DNA of 64,000 nucleotides from the NCBI GenBank assembly GCA_045541115.1, contig JAZQIM010000014.1, positions 65,832-129,831 on the forward strand, in the 5' to 3' direction. How positions within the stretch are numbered: the stretch's first letter is position 1; every line of letters starts with the position of its first letter. The notes under the pieces are model-generated. The model worked only from the letters and a program-made list of their open reading frames with translations. It made no database searches and was not told the DNA's origin. Shown here piece after piece: positions 33,044-37,385 of this stretch. The stretch comes from Candidatus Aphodoplasma sp. (lineage in GTDB: Bacteria; Bacillota; Clostridia; UBA1381; UMGS1253). Both the position numbers and the translations under genes were made by a program.

Positions 33044-33715
33044 TTACCAAACAAATGGTATTAAACGATACTTTATTTTTTTCTTGTATTCACAATATCC
33101 ATCCAGATTCTTCTCAAGAAATTCTTCTTCGCTTTTTAGTCTTTTAATAATTATATATGGATATGCAAGAAAAATTATAAATGAATATATCGAGCCCAGG
33201 ACAAGTGGCATCGACAAAAACATAAGCAGTGTCGCACTATACATCGGGTGTCTTACAACACTATATAGTCCCGTTTCAATAACCCTCTGATTCTCACAAA
33301 CTTCAATAACGCGGCTAAGATATTCGTTTTCCCTAATCACTTGTGCATAAAGAATATATCCGCAAAGAAAAATTATTACAGCAATAATAACCGCCTCTTT
33401 GGGCAAGGTGTACCATCGAAAACGAAATGTCAATCCCGCAACGATAAGCCCTGTTAAAAACATAATTGCGCTTAATATAACAAGCACCTTTTGTTCTCGA
33501 TGTTTTTCCGTTGCTTTCAATCTCTTTTTCAATAATTCAGGCTTTTTTAACATCATCACAATTCCTGTCAAAAGCATTGGCACAAACAAAATTCCCATAA
33601 ATAGCCATGCATTTTTGAAGAAAATGTCTCCGGCAGATAAAAAAAGCGACAAGCCAACTAAAATTATACCTGACAGCAGCTTTGTTATCGCCTGAACAAA
33701 TAATTTCATACTCAT
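33044..33715 (-). CDS. Isoprenylcysteine carboxyl methyltransferase (ICMT/PEMT)-family membrane protein
   Basis: 223 aa, 5-6 TM segments, C-terminal block ETGLYSVVRHPMYSATLL ... EEEFLEK. Appears to have its own -10 TATAAT about 50 nt upstream. Confidence 0.65.
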   Translation of the reverse strand: MSMKLFVQAITKLLSGIILVGLSLFLSAGDIFFKNAWLFMGILFVPMLLTGIVMMLKKPELLKKRLKATEKHREQKVLVILSAIMFLTGLIVAGLTFRFRWYTLPKEAVIIAVIIFLCGYILYAQVIRENEYLSRVIEVCENQRVIETGLYSVVRHPMYSATLLMFLSMPLVLGSIYSFIIFLAYPYIIIKRLKSEEEFLEKNLDGYCEYKKKIKYRLIPFVW

Positions 33716-33770
33716 ATGTTTTCTCCATAAATTTTATTTACCTTTTGGAAGCATTAACGCCTTGATTATA

Positions 33771-33803
33771 AAGACTGTGTAAACTGGATGACAGTCTTTT
33801 TTT
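33771..33803. repeat. Junction module H, copy 1 (hairpin aagactgt/acagtctt plus T7 on the plus strand), upstream of the ICMT-like gene
   Basis: 8-bp perfect stem, 12-nt loop, T-run on the plus strand. About 80% identical to 36431-36462. Confidence 0.7.
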
Positions 33804-33805
33804 AA

Positions 33806-33843
33806 ATTGCGAGGCATAAGGTTTAGATGCAGATCTTTTTTAA
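33806..33843. repeat. Junction module D, copy 1 (3' side of the RT gene)
   Basis: attgcgaGGcataaggtttagatgcaGATCttttttaa. It shares attgcga and a 17-nt identical core (33815-33831) with copy 2. Confidence 0.8.
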
Positions 33844-33866
33844 CTCCATATCACATAAAGTTAAAG

Positions 33867-34805
33867 TTAAAAAATATTTTGCTTTTCGGTAAATTTGATT
33901 TTATCTATCAACCATTTTTTATAACCCATCATTTCGACATTTGCCGCATCTACTGATAAAACATAATTAACCTTTCCAAGCAATTTTTTCAAATAATCTT
34001 GTTCACTTATATCGAGCTGTTTTTTCTGTAAATGAGATGCTACACCAAATTTTTTACAGTAATACAATTCCTGTCTGATTTTCTTTCTGTATGACAACGA
34101 TGTATTTATTTTTTCATTTACTATAATACCTGTAACAATCTGTTTTTGTCCTTTGCGAGCAACAGTCGTTTTTGCATCATTAAGATAAAAACCCATTTTT
34201 TTAAGCTCTTCTTTTACAAACTCAATCACTTCTCTGTGGTTAAAAGCACCTGAAAAAGTCATATCATCGCAATATCTGCTATATCTTATTTTTCTTTCTT
34301 TACACCATGCACCAACTGCATTATCAAAGTCTTTCATAATAATATTTGAAATAATCGGTGATGTTGGTGCACCCTGAGGCAAAGCATCTTTATATAAGCA
34401 AAGTATTGATAACAAAATACGATTCTTTTCTGAGTATTTTTCTTTAACAAAAACCTTTTCTTTAACCATAGGATAAATTATGTGGTCAAAGAAATGTCTG
34501 ATATCCAATTTAAGTATAGTATTTTGCTTAAGGTGTGGATAAGCATTCTTAACGGTTGAAGCACCATATTTATATGCTGTTGCATATGGTGAAACCTCTT
34601 CATATACAAGAAGTTTTTCAGCTATTCTTTTTTGCACTGCCTTCAAAAATTCATTTGGAACAGAAAGTTCTCTATATTCTCCGTTCTTTTTCAAAATTTT
34701 TGTTTGATAATAGTGTGAATGAATATGGTTGCTAAGCGAGTATAATGCTTTTGCTGAAACACCAAGGTCATTCGTCAAAGAGGAAAGCTCCTTATATACA
34801 ATCAT
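33867..34805 (-). CDS. Retron-type reverse transcriptase
   Basis: 312 aa from ATG 34805 (AGGAGG 8-13 nt upstream). RT blocks LDIRHFF and LPQGAPTSPIISN, and catalytic YCDD (nt 34263-34274). Retron signatures NAYPH (NAxxH, nt 34533-34547) and VTG (nt 34128-34136). No maturase or endonuclease domains. Confidence 0.88.
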   Translation of the reverse strand: MIVYKELSSLTNDLGVSAKALYSLSNHIHSHYYQTKILKKNGEYRELSVPNEFLKAVQKRIAEKLLVYEEVSPYATAYKYGASTVKNAYPHLKQNTILKLDIRHFFDHIIYPMVKEKVFVKEKYSEKNRILLSILCLYKDALPQGAPTSPIISNIIMKDFDNAVGAWCKERKIRYSRYCDDMTFSGAFNHREVIEFVKEELKKMGFYLNDAKTTVARKGQKQIVTGIIVNEKINTSLSYRKKIRQELYYCKKFGVASHLQKKQLDISEQDYLKKLLGKVNYVLSVDAANVEMMGYKKWLIDKIKFTEKQNIF

Positions 34806-34830
34806 TATTAAACTTTCCTCCTTTCTGAAT

Positions 34831-35009
34831 GTTGTGGAACAAAACAATGTGAATTACGATGTTGTGTAGCTGTATTTTAGCCCATGAAGTGGGCATTTAT
34901 ATACAGCGAAATCAACTTCGTATGAACGAAGTGAATACTTATAAATGTTACTTCCCAACAACGACTCGTTGTCGGTGTCAAAGTTTATTGACTTGCTCTT
35001 ATGTTCCAC
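34831..35009 (-). ncRNA. Predicted retron msr-msd non-coding RNA
   Basis: Read on the minus strand. a1 is GTGGAACAtAA (35009-34999) and pairs with a2 TTtTGTTCCAC (34844-34834). Candidate branching G at 34998 (or 34996, in an AGC). Hairpins at 34977-34992, 34955-34975, 34915-34932 and 34869-34907. a2 ends 29 nt before the RT ATG. A TATAAT box lies 7 nt upstream of a1. Confidence 0.55.
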
Positions 35010-35015
35010 TTTTTT

Positions 35016-35021
35016 ATTATA
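35016..35021 (-). promoter_or_regulatory. -10 box (TATAAT) positioned to start transcription at the a1 arm of the predicted retron RNA
   Basis: The minus strand reads tttcagTATAATaaaaaaGTGGAACA. The upstream region is AT-rich and has no good -35 hexamer. Confidence 0.35.
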
Positions 35022-35086
35022 CTGAAATCACTATCCTATAAAAAGGACAATGAAACAATAAACCAATTTGAGAACTACATATTACT

Positions 35087-35108
35087 TTTCGACATTATTC
35101 GACATTCT
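35087..35108. repeat. Junction module U, orphan copy upstream of the retron promoter (no ORF, RBS lost)
   Basis: Minus strand: gaaTGTCGAAtaaTGTCGAAAag, a tandem TGTCGAA at a 10-nt period. Confidence 0.7.
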
Positions 35109-35112
35109 TTAT

Positions 35113-35149
35113 ATTGCGACACATAAGGTTTAGATGCAAGTGTTTTTAA
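35113..35149. repeat. Junction module D, copy 2 (3' side of the 136-aa ORF, upstream of the retron RNA)
   Basis: attgcgaCAcataaggtttagatgcaAGTGtttttaa, with core at 35122-35138. Direct orientation, 1307 bp from copy 1. Confidence 0.8.
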
Positions 35150-35187
35150 GATCAAGTTCGTGGTCAGTAAGGAGTAAAAACATCTTT

Positions 35188-35598
35188 TCATTGGAACCTA
35201 TTCGTCGGAATACTTCCCCACCTTAATCCGCTATACAATAATGCATCAATGTGCGAAATCAAATTTAACAACACCATTTCTCTATTTATATCGAACTTAT
35301 GCTCATCGTCACCTTTAAATTCGTGAGATTTTTCATCTAAGTTTACAAATGTCTCCAAGGTTATATATTCTAACAGATTTGCTTCTGGTCCCACAATAAT
35401 ATCACCTTTTTCAAATGAGTAATATGGATTTGCAAACCCCACTTTTTCGGTTCCGTCGAGCAATGTGCATTTTATTTTCATACCATGACAATGCTTGATG
35501 GTAATTCTATTAATACTTTCTGTTTTTTCAATTTTACCATTTTTATAGTAAGTAATTATATTCATGTTGGTATATAACCTTTCTACAATATTTGACAC
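35188..35598 (-). CDS. Hypothetical protein (125-136 aa), directly upstream of the retron RNA
   Basis: The ORF track start at 35598 is a GTG; ATG 35565 (MNIITYYKNGK...) is an alternative start. Beta-rich N-terminal half and helical C-terminal half. No family recognised. Confidence 0.45.
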   Translation of the reverse strand: MSNIVERLYTNMNIITYYKNGKIEKTESINRITIKHCHGMKIKCTLLDGTEKVGFANPYYSFEKGDIIVGPEANLLEYITLETFVNLDEKSHEFKGDDEHKFDINREMVLLNLISHIDALLYSGLRWGSIPTNRFQ

Positions 35599-35600
35599 AC
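35578..35600. repeat. Junction module U, diverged copy at the 5' end of the 136-aa ORF
   Basis: Minus strand gtgtgtcaaatattgtagaaagg matches the 35904-35924 copy at 16 of 22 positions by my alignment. Confidence 0.45.
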
Positions 35601-35614
35601 TTTGCTATGCTTTA

Positions 35615-35642
35615 TGTTAAGTTAGGACAAAAGATTATTCTG
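35615..35642. repeat. Junction module G at the 3' end of the 85-aa ORF (covers the last codon, the stop and ~20 nt)
   Basis: Minus strand: cagaataatcttttgtcctaacttaacat. Confidence 0.7.
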
Positions 35643-35892
35643 TAACCTCTACAATTCCTTTTGACTCTAAAAATCCAATTAGCTTTTCAAGATATGCTAA
35701 TCGTTCGTGGTTTATCGGCGGATTTTCCATATATCCTAAATCACCACCAACACTTTCATAACTTTCTTCGCAATAACACATATGCAAAAGATATCCCCAT
35801 TCCAATTCAGCGCTACCTTCATTCAATAGCTTTTCAAATGTTTCAATCGGCTCATTTTCAAACATCATCATTATTAAATCATGTTCTTTCAT
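35635..35892 (-). CDS. Hypothetical small acidic protein (85 aa), immunity-protein-like in size and composition
   Basis: Good RBS (AAAGGAGA 9 nt before the ATG). No motif recognised. Confidence 0.45.
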   Translation of the reverse strand: MKEHDLIMMMFENEPIETFEKLLNEGSAELEWGYLLHMCYCEESYESVGGDLGYMENPPINHERLAYLEKLIGFLESKGIVEVTE

Positions 35893-35903
35893 TTTAAAGT
35901 TCT

Positions 35904-35924
35904 CCTTTCGACATCTTTCGACAC
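35904..35924. repeat. Junction module U at the 5' end of the 85-aa ORF (includes its RBS)
   Basis: Minus strand: gTGTCGAAAgaTGTCGAAAGGAGa, followed by the ATG. Confidence 0.75.
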
Positions 35925-35937
35925 ATCCATATGGTTC

Positions 35938-35965
35938 ATGTCGGATTAGGACAAAAATTATTCTG
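35938..35965. repeat. Junction module G at the 3' end of the PsiE-like ORF
   Basis: Minus strand cagaataatttttgtcctaatccgacat matches about 22 of 26 positions of the 35615-35642 copy. Confidence 0.7.
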
Positions 35966-36386
35966 CCTTCTCATTATCAGCAATCTCTACAAAACCGTCG
36001 GGGGTTTCTACCATATCATGACGATTGAACAAAAATCTTCTGACAACAAAAAGTATCGCAATAGCTGCAACTGTAATCAAATTTTCCCAAGGGGCAGCAT
36101 GTCCTACTATCAACTGTCGGGCAAGGGCAAACGCTAAAACCTCAATAATGGTTTCAGGGGTGTGCTTGCAAAGCATTTTTATAAGCTCAGCACCAATAGC
36201 AAGTGTAATTGCCCTATCCAAAATCACGACAAGCGAATCTATACCGTGTTCAATAAACGAAATATTAAACATATCTATCACTATCCACACAGCCAGAATG
36301 ACTACTGCAAGGCTCACAATAAGTGATATAAAAAGCTCTATAAGATAGCTTATCTCAAACATTTTGTCTTGAAGTTTTTTTCTCAT
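35958..36386 (-). CDS. PsiE-like (phosphate-starvation-inducible E family) small membrane protein
   Basis: 142 aa, four TM segments. The pattern AIGAELIKML ... LAFALARQLIV.H..PWE.L...AIAILFVVRRF parallels E. coli PsiE as I recall it. Confidence 0.5.
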   Translation of the reverse strand: MRKKLQDKMFEISYLIELFISLIVSLAVVILAVWIVIDMFNISFIEHGIDSLVVILDRAITLAIGAELIKMLCKHTPETIIEVLAFALARQLIVGHAAPWENLITVAAIAILFVVRRFLFNRHDMVETPDGFVEIADNEKAE

Positions 36387-36430
36387 AATATTTTCTCCTT
36401 TGTATTTGATTTTGCATTTATCCGTTTATG

Positions 36431-36462
36431 AAGACTGTATAATCCGGATGCCAATCTTTTTT
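36431..36462. repeat. Junction module H, copy 2 (degenerate), upstream of the PsiE-like gene
   Basis: aagactgtataatccggatgccaatctttttt compared with aagactgtgtaaactggatgacagtcttttttt. Confidence 0.65.
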
Positions 36463-37006
36463 AACAATAATTAGTGTAGAAATATCCCTTATTTACATAT
36501 TCACTAACCAAATCTGATTTTTTATCTATTTCACCTGTAACCAACTTTAAATATGTATAAAATATACGTATTTCTTCTCTATCCAAAGTCATAGTAAAAA
36601 CATTTGAACCCATAGCACCATCGTCGCACCAAAAATGAATATTAAAATCAACAGATATATCCAATGTTACAGAGCCATCCTTATACCAAACTTTACCCGG
36701 CTCACTGTATAATGTTGTTATTGGACTCATATCAAATTCAAAATCGGGTTCTGCAAATCTAACAGTGCATCTTTCTTTCATATTTCCTTCTAGCAAATCT
36801 TTAAATACACTTTTCAAATAGTCTATTTCATCGTTTAGAAAAGCCTCCCAACCTTCAATATTATAATTAATGTACTTACTTTTTAAGGAAAAGTTTGTGT
36901 TGCACCAATCATAATCTACAGTCTCTTCAGTCGGTTTTTTATAATTATATATTTCAAACCATAAGTCCACATCACATATATTCATATGCAATTTCAACTT
37001 TTCCAC
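36461..37006 (-). CDS. Hypothetical protein, tentatively WapI-like immunity protein
   Basis: 181 aa. The segment DYDWCNTNFSLKS...FLNDEIDYLKSVFKDLLEG recalls the WapI pattern DYWDANWLK...L..DLKRFYESLQKL. The true start may be an internal TTG or ATG (about 36994 or 36985). Confidence 0.35.
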   Translation of the reverse strand: MEKLKLHMNICDVDLWFEIYNYKKPTEETVDYDWCNTNFSLKSKYINYNIEGWEAFLNDEIDYLKSVFKDLLEGNMKERCTVRFAEPDFEFDMSPITTLYSEPGKVWYKDGSVTLDISVDFNIHFWCDDGAMGSNVFTMTLDREEIRIFYTYLKLVTGEIDKKSDLVSEYVNKGYFYTNYC

Positions 37007-37008
37007 CT

Positions 37009-37031
37009 CCTTTCAACAAATTTCGACATTC
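37009..37031. repeat. Junction module U at the 5' end of the 181-aa ORF (includes its RBS)
   Basis: Minus strand: gaaTGTCGAAAtttgTTGAAAGGAGG. Confidence 0.7.
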
Positions 37032-37067
37032 TTACTATCATCACCTTATCTTAAGCCAAAAACTCTA

Positions 37068-37385
37068 TTAGTCGTCTGCATCTTCATCAAACGCTTCAAT
37101 ATAAAAGCTTACAGGTCTAAAGCCGTCATTACATGAAATCATTGCCGACCTTTTATTTTTCATCCATCCATTATATAAATTTTCGCCGCCATGTGACAGG
37201 GCCATTACAAAAGAGGACATACTTTCCCAGGCACTATCACATAAACCATCGGGCTTTTTCCATCCGTTTGCGATAAAAGTTTGCCCTTCCTTCAAATCGC
37301 AGGCATGCTCTATCGGATTTTCATATTTTTCTATTAAATCATCATAACGGGCCATTCTCATAACTGTTATTCTGCATTTTTTCAT
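37068..37385 (-). CDS. TIGR04076-family small protein
   Basis: 105 aa. MKKCRITV...C.L.EGQTF...P.G.C..AW......CNDGFRPV.F.IE matches my recollection of the TIGR04076 consensus. Confidence 0.55.
   Translation of the reverse strand: MKKCRITVMRMARYDDLIEKYENPIEHACDLKEGQTFIANGWKKPDGLCDSAWESMSSFVMALSHGGENLYNGWMKNKRSAMISCNDGFRPVSFYIEAFDEDADD

What the first reader, a model, noticed from the sequence alone, without database searches (positions are those of the whole stretch)
34831..35021. Hand-folded msr-msd RNA: a1/a2 inverted repeat, candidate branching G and four hairpins, starting right after a TATAAT box
All coordinates below are read on the minus strand.
- a1, GTGGAACAtAA (35009-34999), pairs with a2, TTtTGTTCCAC (34844-34834). 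Eight base pairs are perfect and two more follow a single mismatch.
- a1 is followed directly by G-AGC (34998-34995). In Ec86 the branching G sits directly 3' of a1.
- Four hairpins follow:
  - GTCAA/TTGAC (34992-34977)
  - a strong CCGACAACG/CGTTGTTGG (34975-34955)
  - ACTTCG/CGAAGT (34932-34915)
  - a composite hairpin GCTGTAT..GCCCA-cttca-TGGGC..ATACAGC (34907-34869), which I take to be the msd stem
- a2 ends 29 nt before the RT start codon.
- TATAAT (35021-35016) sits 7 nt upstream of a1, so transcription would begin at the first base of a1.
- The overall length of about 176 nt and the layout (promoter, a1, G, msr loops, msd hairpin, a2, RT) match the canonical retron architecture.
- The msd hairpin is short (39 nt), so the predicted msDNA would be small.
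Basis: seen in the sequence. Interest (0 to 1): 0.7.

Follow-up and report, generated by a model that had tools for sequence, protein, structure and literature searches.

The report
Ec107-like stand-alone retron ncRNA
The folded RNA upstream of the reverse transcriptase gene is a genuine retron template RNA (msr-msd) of the already described Ec107-like, effector-less retron lineage common in gut Firmicutes, so the hand fold is largely right but the element is an ordinary member of a known family.

Summary
The 182-nt region folds far better than shuffles (-59.2 kcal/mol, z = -7.3).

**What it is.** The downstream 312-aa ORF is a retron reverse transcriptase (RT). Its best PADLOC model is RT_Ec107-like (9.6e-128). 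It has the YCDD box and is 44% identical to E. coli retron-Ec107 RT.

**Comparative support.** A covariance model built from 18 homologous upstream regions finds the same RNA directly upstream of the RT in 42 loci. One further hit is the experimentally known Ec107 locus (pyrE-RT-slmA).
- Covariation supports a1/a2, hairpins 1 and 2, and the msd stem.
- G34998 (branching G) is invariant in 42/42 loci.
- The opposing G34845 is conserved in 41/42.
- A -10 box sits 2-17 nt (mostly 3-11) before a1 in 30/42.

- Hairpin 3 has no support beyond controls and competes with an outer tier of the msd stem.
- The msd stem-loop is 68 nt (34922-34855), not 39.
- By analogy with Ec107 the msDNA should be about 100 nt, not small.

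**Context and verdict.** No neighbouring gene is conserved, so this is a stand-alone cassette of about 1.3 kb. That matches what has been published for the Ec107 branch of clade 2. It is a new member of a known kind, of low to moderate interest.

The parts
35016..35021 (-). -10 promoter box TATAAT, 6 nt upstream of a1
   Evidence: Read from the sequence. A -10-like hexamer matching at least 5 of 6 bases lies 2-17 nt (mostly 3-11) upstream of a1 in 30 of 42 homologous loci, and 14 of these are perfect TATAAT. No consensus -35 is found. The transcription start is inferred, not shown.
34999..35009 (-). a1, the 5' arm of the closing inverted repeat (GUGGAACAUAA)
   Evidence: In helix 1 of A4, 9 of 11 pairs show changes on both sides and 90.7% of cells are paired. 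Examples of covariation are L004 CCAGUUAAACA/UGUUUAACUGG and L012 ACGGAACA/UGUUCCGU.
34998..34998 (-). Predicted branching (priming) guanosine, directly 3' of a1
   Evidence: G in 42 of 42 aligned loci, preceded by A in 40 of 42. It aligns with the G of AAUAGC in the E. coli Ec107 locus. The priming G lies in a conserved AGC in retrons generally (PMC6868368). Here the next base is A. The 2'-5' branch itself is not shown.
34977..34992 (-). msr hairpin 1 (GUCAA-UAAACU-UUGAC)
   Evidence: All 5 pairs show changes on both sides and 92.2% of cells are paired in A4. 93.3% are paired in the structure-blind alignment A2.
34955..34975 (-). msr hairpin 2 (CCGACAACG-AGU-CGUUGUUGG) with a near-invariant core CGAGUCG (34968-34962)
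   Evidence: Seven of 9 pairs show double changes and 96.3% of cells are paired. The two C-G pairs of the core are 42/42 and loop AGU is 40-41/42. I infer that it is the likely RT recognition element.
34930..34938 (-). Conserved single-stranded linker motif GUAUUCACU (GUAUUCRCU in relatives)
   Evidence: Nearly invariant A-U-U-C columns in A2. Its function is unknown. It lies inside the predicted msd template.
34915..34932 (-).
   Evidence: 76.7% of cells are paired against 73.5% when shuffled (30 of 500 shuffles reach it). The covariation score is 0.130 against 0.100 (49 of 500). Its 3' arm overlaps the outer msd helix.
34855..34922 (-). msd stem-loop in three tiers. Outer tier: 34922-34913 with 34864-34855, including an A34917.A34860 mismatch. 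Middle tier: 34907-34901 with 34875-34869. Distal tier: 34894-34890 with 34884-34880, loop CUUCA.
   Evidence: MFE folds of the window and of 41 homologues. Middle tier: 6 of 7 pairs show double changes and 94.8% of cells are paired. Outer tier: duplex energy of a locus's own flanks averages -9.1 kcal/mol against -4.6 for flanks paired across loci, Mann-Whitney p = 4e-15.
34846..34948 (-). Predicted reverse-transcribed template (msd), about 103 nt; the 3' limit is approximate
   Evidence: This is an inference. In Ec86 the template starts one base 5' of the opposing G (my knowledge of the Ec86 sequence). In Ec107, 107 nt counted from that point ends 7 nt after hairpin 2 (L085 coordinates). Transferred to the window, this gives 34948. 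The DNA complement folds at -16.1 kcal/mol, z = -4.8.
34845..34845 (-). Opposing G, immediately 5' of a2
   Evidence: G in 41 of 42 loci. Mestre et al. highlight the 'two opposing G residues' of retron ncRNAs (PMC7736814).
34834..34844 (-). a2, the 3' arm of the closing inverted repeat (UUUUGUUCCAC)
33867..34805 (-). Retron reverse transcriptase gene, 312 aa. ATG at 34805, RBS GGAGG at 34821-34817, stop at 33869-33867.
   Evidence: PADLOC RT_Ec107-like 9.6e-128 (424 bits), next best RT_III-A at 335 bits. Pfam RVT_1. Motifs NAYPH, YCDD and VTG are present. 44% identical to Ec107 RT.
35108..35138 (-). Upstream copy of a 31-nt direct repeat that flanks the cassette
   Evidence: 28 of 31 bases identical to 33831-33801. 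It lies at the edge of the 98.4%-identical cassette shared with L086.
33801..33831 (-). Downstream copy of the 31-nt direct repeat

Best explanation
Window 35021-33867 (minus strand) is a compact, stand-alone retron of the Ec107-like branch (RT clade 2 of Mestre et al.). It consists of a promoter, a 176-nt msr-msd non-coding RNA (35009-34834) and a 312-aa RT.

**Proposed mechanism**
1. Transcription starts at or next to a1.
2. The RNA folds so that a1 and a2 pair. This places G34998 opposite G34845 at the inner end of the stem.
3. The RT binds the msr part, probably through the almost invariant hairpin 2.
4. The RT uses the 2'-OH of G34998 as primer and copies the RNA from U34846 towards the 5' end, through the three-tier msd stem.
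5. Synthesis stops a few bases 3' of hairpin 2, near 34948. The product is a branched RNA-DNA molecule with about 100 nt of DNA.

**Shown here:** RT family membership, the RNA fold, its covariation, the invariant Gs, the conserved -10 box, homology of the RNA with that of retron-Ec107, and the absence of a conserved neighbouring gene.

**Inferred:** the transcription start, the branch point, the msDNA ends and its production.

**Function:** by analogy with other retrons, phage defence is the most likely role. The partner (effector) is not encoded next to the cassette and is unknown, as for the whole Ec107-like branch.
For: **Fold.** z = -7.34, closed by a1/a2.

**RT.**
- RT_Ec107-like 9.6e-128. 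The genuine Ec107 RT scores 441 bits on the same model, against 424 here.
- 44% identity to Ec107 RT.
- The YCDD box is a noted peculiarity of Ec107 (PMC6868368) and is invariant in the family.

**RNA.**
- Model R1 hits 42 loci at E < 1e-3. All hits are directly upstream of the RT and on its strand, and 24 of them were not used to build the model.
- R1 also hits the Ec107 locus between pyrE and slmA at 37 bits, E = 6e-9.

**Covariation.**
- Structure-blind MAFFT alignment A2: 86.1% of cells paired, 23 pairs with double changes against 10.9 when shuffled, 0 of 500 shuffles reach it, and slid controls give 36-48% paired.
- Model-fitted alignment A4: 87.5% paired and 38 of 43 pairs with double changes.

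**Conserved bases and promoter.** Invariant G34998 and G34845. Conserved -10 box.

**Stand-alone status.**
- Neighbours differ in every locus.
- A 98.4%-identical cassette sits in another context.
- The same clustering does detect PRTase_III-A next to 12 more distant RTs, which serves as a positive control.

**Literature.**
- In a 2026 survey, clade2_Ec107like is 93% Bacillota, 91% host-associated and has no recurrent accessory modules. That survey also lists an existing Ec107_like covariance model among the most frequently detected models (10.64898/2026.05.14.725207).
Against: - There is no experimental evidence for msDNA from this locus or from any Clostridia member that I could find.
- No Rfam family matched.
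- The base after the branching G is A here, not the C of the usual AGC. A second G (34996) does sit in an AGC context.
- No consensus -35 is present.
- Alignment A4 was fitted to the structure and so leans towards it. The structure-blind alignment A2 gives the same answer.
- The msDNA 3' end is transferred from Ec107 by position only.
- With no effector identified, the biological role remains an inference.
Confidence: 0.93

Rival explanations
1. It is the same retron RNA, but the branch point is G34996, which sits in the canonical A-G-C triplet (34997-34995), rather than G34998.
For: Retron priming Gs are described as lying in a conserved AGC (PMC6868368). In the window G34998 is followed by A, whereas G34996 is followed by C.
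Against: The column of 34998 is G in 42 of 42 loci and aligns with the G of AGC in most relatives and in Ec107. The column of 34996 is G in only 25 of 42. G34998 abuts the a1/a2 stem opposite the conserved G34845, as in Ec86.
Confidence: 0.08
2. One of the adjacent genes is the cis-encoded effector, making this a normal tripartite retron. The candidates are the PEMT/ICMT-like membrane methyltransferase (33044-33715) and the 136-aa ORF (35188-35598).
For: Both lie on the same strand within 400 bp of the cassette. Membrane proteins are known retron effectors, for example in type IV (PMC7736814).
Against: Neither has a homologue next to any of the other 85 RT loci. Neither has a PADLOC hit. The 98.4%-identical cassette in L086 is followed by a DUF4288 gene instead. 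Homology with close relatives ends at the RT stop.
Confidence: 0.04
3. It is a decayed or silent retron relic. The RNA fold is retained by descent but no msDNA is made.
For: There is no effector, no -35 box and no experimental data.
Against: The RT ORF is intact with all catalytic and retron-specific motifs. Compensatory changes in four helices indicate selection on the structure. The family is large, with 2858 proteins at E < 1e-20. The -10 box is conserved.
Confidence: 0.04
4. It is not a reverse-transcription template but a structured 5' leader of the RT mRNA, or the ncRNA of a different RT-based system (DRT/UG type or a group II intron fragment).
For: The RNA lies in the 5' UTR position. 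Several defence RTs have unrelated upstream ncRNAs.
Against: The best protein models are all retron RTs. There is no group II intron or other Rfam match. The RT has only RVT_1 and no maturase domain. The RNA has the retron hallmarks (terminal inverted repeat and two opposing conserved Gs) and is homologous to the msr-msd of Ec107, whose msDNA is experimentally known.
Confidence: 0.02

Closest known systems
Retron-Eco5 (Ec107) of Escherichia coli, located between pyrE and slmA/ttk
   Same: - The RT is 44% identical, has the YCDD box and has the same best PADLOC model.
- The same ncRNA plan is recovered by model R1 at E = 6e-9: a1, A-G, hairpin 1, the GCGAGUCGC hairpin, a linker, a tiered msd stem, G and a2.
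- It is a stand-alone cassette of about 1.3 kb without an effector or mobile-element features (PMC6868368 and PMC7736814).
   Different: - The host is a low-GC gut Firmicute rather than E. coli.
- a1/a2 is 11 rather than 14 pairs.
- The base after the branching G is A, not C.
- There is a single distal msd hairpin where Ec107 has two.
- The predicted msDNA is about 103 nt against 107 nt.
- msDNA is not demonstrated here.
clade2_Ec107like retrons of Bacillota (SPIRE survey, bioRxiv 10.64898/2026.05.14.725207) and the Ec107_like covariance model of Mestre et al. 2020
   Same: The window matches the group as described: Ec107-like RT, gut or host-associated Firmicutes relatives, an msr-msd detectable by covariance model, and no recurrent accessory gene. 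My own 85-locus comparison reaches the same conclusions.
   Different: I could not run the published Ec107_like model itself, so assignment to that exact model is by proxy through my own model R1 and its hit on Ec107. This particular sequence is not on record in the protein collection. The nearest protein is 99% identical (P0001).
Type III-A retrons (PRTase-like effector with or without a winged-helix protein)
   Same: These are the second-best RT models (RT_III-A, 335 bits). Mestre et al. place the Ec107 branch as sister to a PRTase-linked cluster.
   Different: No PRTase-like gene lies next to this RT or next to any of the Ec107-like loci. The 12 distant loci that do carry one (PRTase_III-A, 4.5e-63) are not hit by the RNA model.
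Retron-Eco1 (Ec86), the canonical reference
   Same: The general mechanism and layout are shared: an a1/a2 stem, a branching G at the 3' end of a1 opposite a second G, msr hairpins, one long msd hairpin, and the RT gene downstream.
   Different: It belongs to a different RT clade (type II-A3), has a YADD box, has an NDT-like effector, and its ncRNA has no detectable sequence similarity to this one.

Membership tests
Retron (general) | RT with retron-specific region X (NAxxH), region Y (VTG) and a YxDD catalytic box | tested here: met
   NAYPH, YCDD and VTG are present in the ORF. N87, A88, H91, Y178, C179, D180, D181, T225 and G226 are invariant in alignment A1. The top 25 PADLOC hits listed are all retron RT models.
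Retron (general) | Adjacent ncRNA on the RT strand, closed by terminal inverted repeats a1/a2 | tested here: met
   Nine of 11 a1/a2 pairs show compensatory changes.
Retron (general) | Conserved priming G at the 3' end of a1, opposite a second G 5' of a2 | tested here: met
   G34998 is G in 42 of 42 loci and G34845 in 41 of 42. The usual AGC context is only AGA in this window.
Retron (general) | One to three msr hairpins followed by one long, stable msd stem-loop | tested here: met
   Two covarying msr hairpins and a 68-nt three-tier msd stem.
Retron (general) | Production of branched msDNA with a 2'-5' RNA-DNA link | not testable with these tools
   This needs expression followed by PAGE, debranching or RT-DNA sequencing.
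Retron (general, tripartite definition) | Associated effector gene or effector domain fused to the RT | tested here: not met
   No gene cluster other than the RT is shared by the Ec107-like loci. The RT is 312 aa with RVT_1 only. This absence is itself the published trait of the Ec107 branch.
Ec107-like branch (RT clade 2, stand-alone) | RT best matched by the Ec107-like profile, with the YCDD box | tested here: met
   424 bits against 335 for the next model. Ec107 itself scores 441 bits. YCDD is noted for Ec107 in PMC6868368.
Ec107-like branch (RT clade 2, stand-alone) | ncRNA of the Ec107 structural family | tested here: met
   Model R1, built without any enterobacterial sequence, hits Ec107 (E = 6e-9) and the loci L028, L029 and L036. 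The published Ec107_like model itself was not available.
Ec107-like branch (RT clade 2, stand-alone) | [quoted passage not shown] | tested here: met
Type III-A retron | Adjacent PRTase-like protein | tested here: not met
   No PADLOC hit for the seven flanking ORFs tested. A PRTase_III-A gene is found only beside distant RTs.

The most novel reading that the evidence does not exclude
The cassette may belong to a retron lineage that truly works without a cis-encoded effector. The RT-msDNA complex would either act with a partner encoded elsewhere or have a non-defence role.

The cassette may also move as a unit between slots of an array of small immunity-like genes, by recombination at a repeated 31-65-nt promoter-like element. 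Two observations point this way:
- 28/31 direct repeats lie at both ends of the cassette.
- A 98.4%-identical cassette sits in another context that carries the same repeat.
Probability: 0.3. Interest if true: 0.55.

Novelty: new member of a known kind. Interest (0 to 1): 0.25.

Why it matters
- **Annotation.** The result annotates an unannotated 1.3-kb element with base-level predictions: branch G34998, template 34846 to about 34948, and the RT-binding hairpin 34975-34955. These predictions can be tested directly.
- **Engineering.** Compact stand-alone retrons are candidate DNA-writing tools. The msd middle and distal stem (34907-34869) is the natural place to insert a donor.
- **Biology.** The locus adds one more instance to the unresolved question of how effector-less Ec107-like retrons function. 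These are abundant in gut Firmicutes. The finding does not change what is known about the family.

Tried and rejected
- **Rfam** scan of 33500-36500 at E <= 10 gave only two chance-level hits, a snoRNA and a miRNA.
- **Promoter scan** did not return the TATAAT because no -35 hexamer reaches 4 of 6. I relied instead on positional conservation of the -10 box.
- **Outer msd helix** scored poorly in column-based counts (61-67% paired) because of alignment slippage. An alignment-free test comparing own flanks with flanks paired across loci resolved it.
- **Effector search:**
  - PADLOC and Pfam on the flanking ORFs found nothing relevant.
  - All-against-all clustering of 1663 ORFs from 85 loci gave the RT as the only shared cluster. 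There was also an antisense-ORF artefact inside the RT gene.
- **Exact look-up** of the window RT found it is not on record.
- **Phage and plasmid collections** hold nothing above 41% identity.
- **Literature:**
  - Shimamoto et al. 1995 (PMC176584), which I consulted to get the experimentally mapped ends of Ec107 msr/msd, is not held, and I did not try the original Herzer et al. 1992 report. I therefore used only the 107-nt length implied by the name.
  - My recollection that the Ec107 RNA is 75 nt with the branch at G18 is consistent with L085 but unverified.
  - Searches for functional work on Eco5 or Ec107-like effectors returned nothing.
- **Group II intron or DRT-type interpretations** were rejected on protein and RNA evidence.

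Full report
**1. Observation**

- TATAAT 35021-35016
- a1 GTGGAACATAA 35009-34999
- GAGC 34998-34995
- GTCAA/TTGAC 34992-34977
- CCGACAACG/CGTTGTTGG 34975-34955
- ACTTCG/CGAAGT 34932-34915
- GCTGTAT..GCCCA-cttca-TGGGC..ATACAGC 34907-34869
- a2 TTTTGTTCCAC 34844-34834

An independent repeat search returns the same arm pairs (I1, I3, I8, I9).

Two distances are off by one. Six bases separate the -10 box from a1. Twenty-eight bases separate a2 from the ATG at 34805, which is preceded by GGAGG at 34821-34817.

The region 34831-35012(-) folds at -59.2 kcal/mol, against -31.6 +/- 3.8 for dinucleotide shuffles (z = -7.34, 0 of 200 as good). The minimum-energy structure is closed by a1/a2.

**2. The gene downstream**

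ORF 34805-33867(-) encodes 312 aa.
- Its only Pfam domain is RVT_1.
- Against PADLOC its best model is RT_Ec107-like (9.6e-128, 424 bits), followed by RT_III-A (335 bits) and other retron RT models.
- It carries the retron-specific motifs NAxxH (NAYPH) and VTG, and a YCDD catalytic box.
- YCDD instead of YADD is a noted peculiarity of the Ec107 RT (PMC6868368).

I retrieved the real retron-Ec107 from an E. coli chromosome. It lies between pyrE and slmA, as published. Its 319-aa RT is 44% identical to the window protein and scores 441 bits on the same PADLOC model.

**3. Related loci and the RNA**

The protein has 2858 relatives at E < 1e-20. Eighty genome loci and six further loci were fetched. 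The relatives are mostly uncultured Oscillospiraceae, Eubacteriales and other gut Firmicutes.

Reading the 260 nt upstream of the RT in these loci shows the same layout, with different a1/a2 sequences that remain complementary. Examples are CCAGUUAAACA/UGUUUAACUGG in L004, ACGGAACA/UGUUCCGU in L012 and GGACGGCA/UGCCGUCC in L009.

*Structure-blind alignment.* A MAFFT alignment of 18 of these regions (A2) was scored against the structure derived from the window.
- 86.1% of cells are paired, against 78.1% when shuffled.
- 23 pairs show changes on both sides, against 10.9 when shuffled.
- 0 of 500 shuffles reach any of the five measures.
- Slid controls give 36-48% paired.
- RNAalifold independently predicts a1/a2, hairpin 1, hairpin 2 and the GCUGUAU/AUACAGC stem.

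*Covariance model.* Model R1 was built from A2 and run over 703 kb of loci.
- It found 42 matches at E < 1e-3. Every one lies on the RT strand directly upstream of the RT.
- 24 of these matches were not used to build the model, including three enterobacterial loci.
- It hits the genuine Ec107 locus at 37 bits, E = 6e-9.

On the 42-sequence alignment A4 the helices score as follows. A4 is fitted to the model and therefore leans towards the structure.

| Helix | Pairs with double changes | Cells paired |
|---|---|---|
| a1/a2 | 9 of 11 | 90.7% |
| Hairpin 1 | 5 of 5 | 92.2% |
| Hairpin 2 | 7 of 9 | 96.3% |
| Middle msd stem | 6 of 7 | 94.8% |

**4. Key bases**

- The base after a1 is G in 42 of 42 loci and is preceded by A in 40 of 42. 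This is window G34998.
- The base immediately 5' of a2, G34845, is G in 41 of 42 loci.
- These are the 'two opposing G residues' of retron ncRNAs (PMC7736814).
- The priming G is normally in an AGC triplet (PMC6868368). In this window and its closest relatives the triplet is AGA, and in most relatives and in Ec107 it is AGC.
- Hairpin 2 has a nearly invariant core, C-G-A-G-U-C-G (34968-34962). I take it to be the RT recognition element, which is an inference.

**5. Corrections to the fold**

- 76.7% of cells are paired, against 73.5% when shuffled.
- 30 of 500 shuffles reach that value.
- The covariation score is within the range of the slid controls.

*Outer msd tier.* The 3' arm of hairpin 3 is also the 5' arm of an outer tier of the msd stem (34922-34913 with 34864-34855, with one A.A mismatch).
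- This tier appears in the MFE of the window.
- With different sequences, it appears in the separate folds of nearly all homologues.
- Column-based counts were blurred by alignment slippage there, so I tested it without an alignment. The 17 nt on either side of the middle stem pair with a mean of -9.1 kcal/mol within a locus and -4.6 between loci (Mann-Whitney p = 4e-15).
- The msd stem-loop is therefore 68 nt (34922-34855), not 39.

*msDNA length.* In Ec86 the template begins one base 5' of the opposing G (my knowledge of that sequence). Counting 107 nt from the corresponding base in Ec107 ends 7 nt after hairpin 2 (L085 2682 to 2576). The same rule in the window gives a template from 34846 to about 34948, which is roughly 103 nt. 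The DNA complement folds into the same three-tier hairpin (-16.1 kcal/mol, z = -4.8). The msDNA is thus predicted to be of ordinary length, not small. The 3' end is an inference.

**6. Promoter**

The scan finds no -35 match. However, a -10-like hexamer matching at least 5 of 6 bases lies 2-17 nt (mostly 3-11) upstream of a1 in 30 of 42 loci. Fourteen are perfect TATAAT and several have TTGCAA- or TTGACA-like -35 boxes or a TGn extension. A transcription start at about 35009 is well supported by comparison but is not shown.

**7. Context**

- Homology with the closest relatives runs only from about 35063-35105 to 33894-33806. This is about 1.2-1.3 kb, the size reported for retron-Ec107.
- The flanking genes differ in every locus (SpoVA and amylase; the peptidase U4 gene and an acetyltransferase; others).
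- Clustering 1663 ORFs from 85 loci gives no shared cluster other than the RT and an antisense artefact within it.
- The same procedure does recover a PRTase_III-A gene beside 12 more distant RTs, so the negative result is meaningful.
- The window's own neighbours are a PEMT/ICMT-like membrane methyltransferase (33044-33715) and a 136-aa ORF (35188-35598). Neither has a defence-family hit or a counterpart elsewhere.

**8. What is known**

- Mestre et al. [quoted passage not shown] Its members may have lost a PRTase partner or may use unknown effectors in trans (PMC7736814).
- A 2026 survey of SPIRE genomes reports 192 'clade2_Ec107like' retrons. They are 93% Bacillota, 91% host-associated and have no recurrent accessory module. 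An existing Ec107_like covariance model is listed among the most frequently detected ncRNA models. The survey ranks the group as a minimally divergent expansion of a known lineage (10.64898/2026.05.14.725207).
- The window element fits that description in every tested respect.

**9. Verdict**

The hand fold is essentially right and the element is a real retron msr-msd RNA. The branch point is resolved to G34998, the msd stem is enlarged and the msDNA is predicted at about 100 nt. It is a new member of a known and already surveyed kind. The only open biology is the general question of how effector-less Ec107-like retrons work.

- Confidence in the identification: 0.93.
- Interest: 0.25.

Noticed in passing
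window 35138-35108 (-) and 33831-33801 (-); L086 1508-1569 and 1941-2005: A 31-nt direct repeat (28 of 31 identical; TTGCATCTAAACCTTATGTGTCGCAATATAA) brackets the retron cassette. The same element of about 65 nt occurs twice in L086, each time just before a small gene. There a 98.4%-identical cassette sits in a different context. It looks like a repeated promoter or leader of a gene array and a possible recombination site for cassette exchange.
   Followed up: partly
window 35099-35085 (-) and 35932-35903 (-): A tandem (A)TGTCGAA(A) motif occurs in two places. At 35932-35903 it sits immediately before the RBS of the 85-aa ORF 35635-35892. At 35099-35085 no ORF follows it, only the retron promoter, as if the retron had replaced a gene behind this leader.
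   Followed up: no
window 35049-35032 (-): The palindrome TGTCCTTTTTATAGGATA lies over the expected -35 position of the retron promoter. It is kept in L082, L083 and L002, which have different flanking genes. It may be an operator or part of the cassette end.
   Followed up: no
window 35188-37385 (-): There is a run of small same-strand ORFs upstream of the retron. One is a WapI-like immunity protein (36461-37006; PF24716, 1.2e-9) and one is a weak PsiE-like membrane protein (35958-36386). Three have no family (35188-35598, 35635-35892, 37068-37385). This may be an island of orphan immunity genes.
   Followed up: no
window 34917 and 34860 (-): The outer msd helix carries a single mismatch (A.A here). 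By eye, many homologues have a mismatch or one-base bulge at the corresponding place despite different helix sequences. This was not quantified.
   Followed up: no
window 34894-34880 (-); alignment A4: The distal msd hairpin has a similar sequence, GC(A/C)CAC..GUG(U/G)GC, in many Clostridia loci and in some enterobacterial loci (L029, L036). E. coli Ec107 itself has two different distal hairpins.
   Followed up: no
window 34880-34894 (+): The only terminator-like site in 33700-35300 is on the plus strand. It is simply the complement of the distal msd hairpin followed by a T-rich stretch and is probably incidental.
   Followed up: no
L051, L056, L058, L060, L062-L064, L067, L068, L074, L075, L080: Twelve distant RT loci (31-39% identity) carry a conserved upstream gene of about 328 aa. 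The one representative scanned (L051) matches PRTase_III-A (4.5e-63), so the cluster is presumably type III-A retrons. The Ec107-like RNA model does not hit them.
   Followed up: partly
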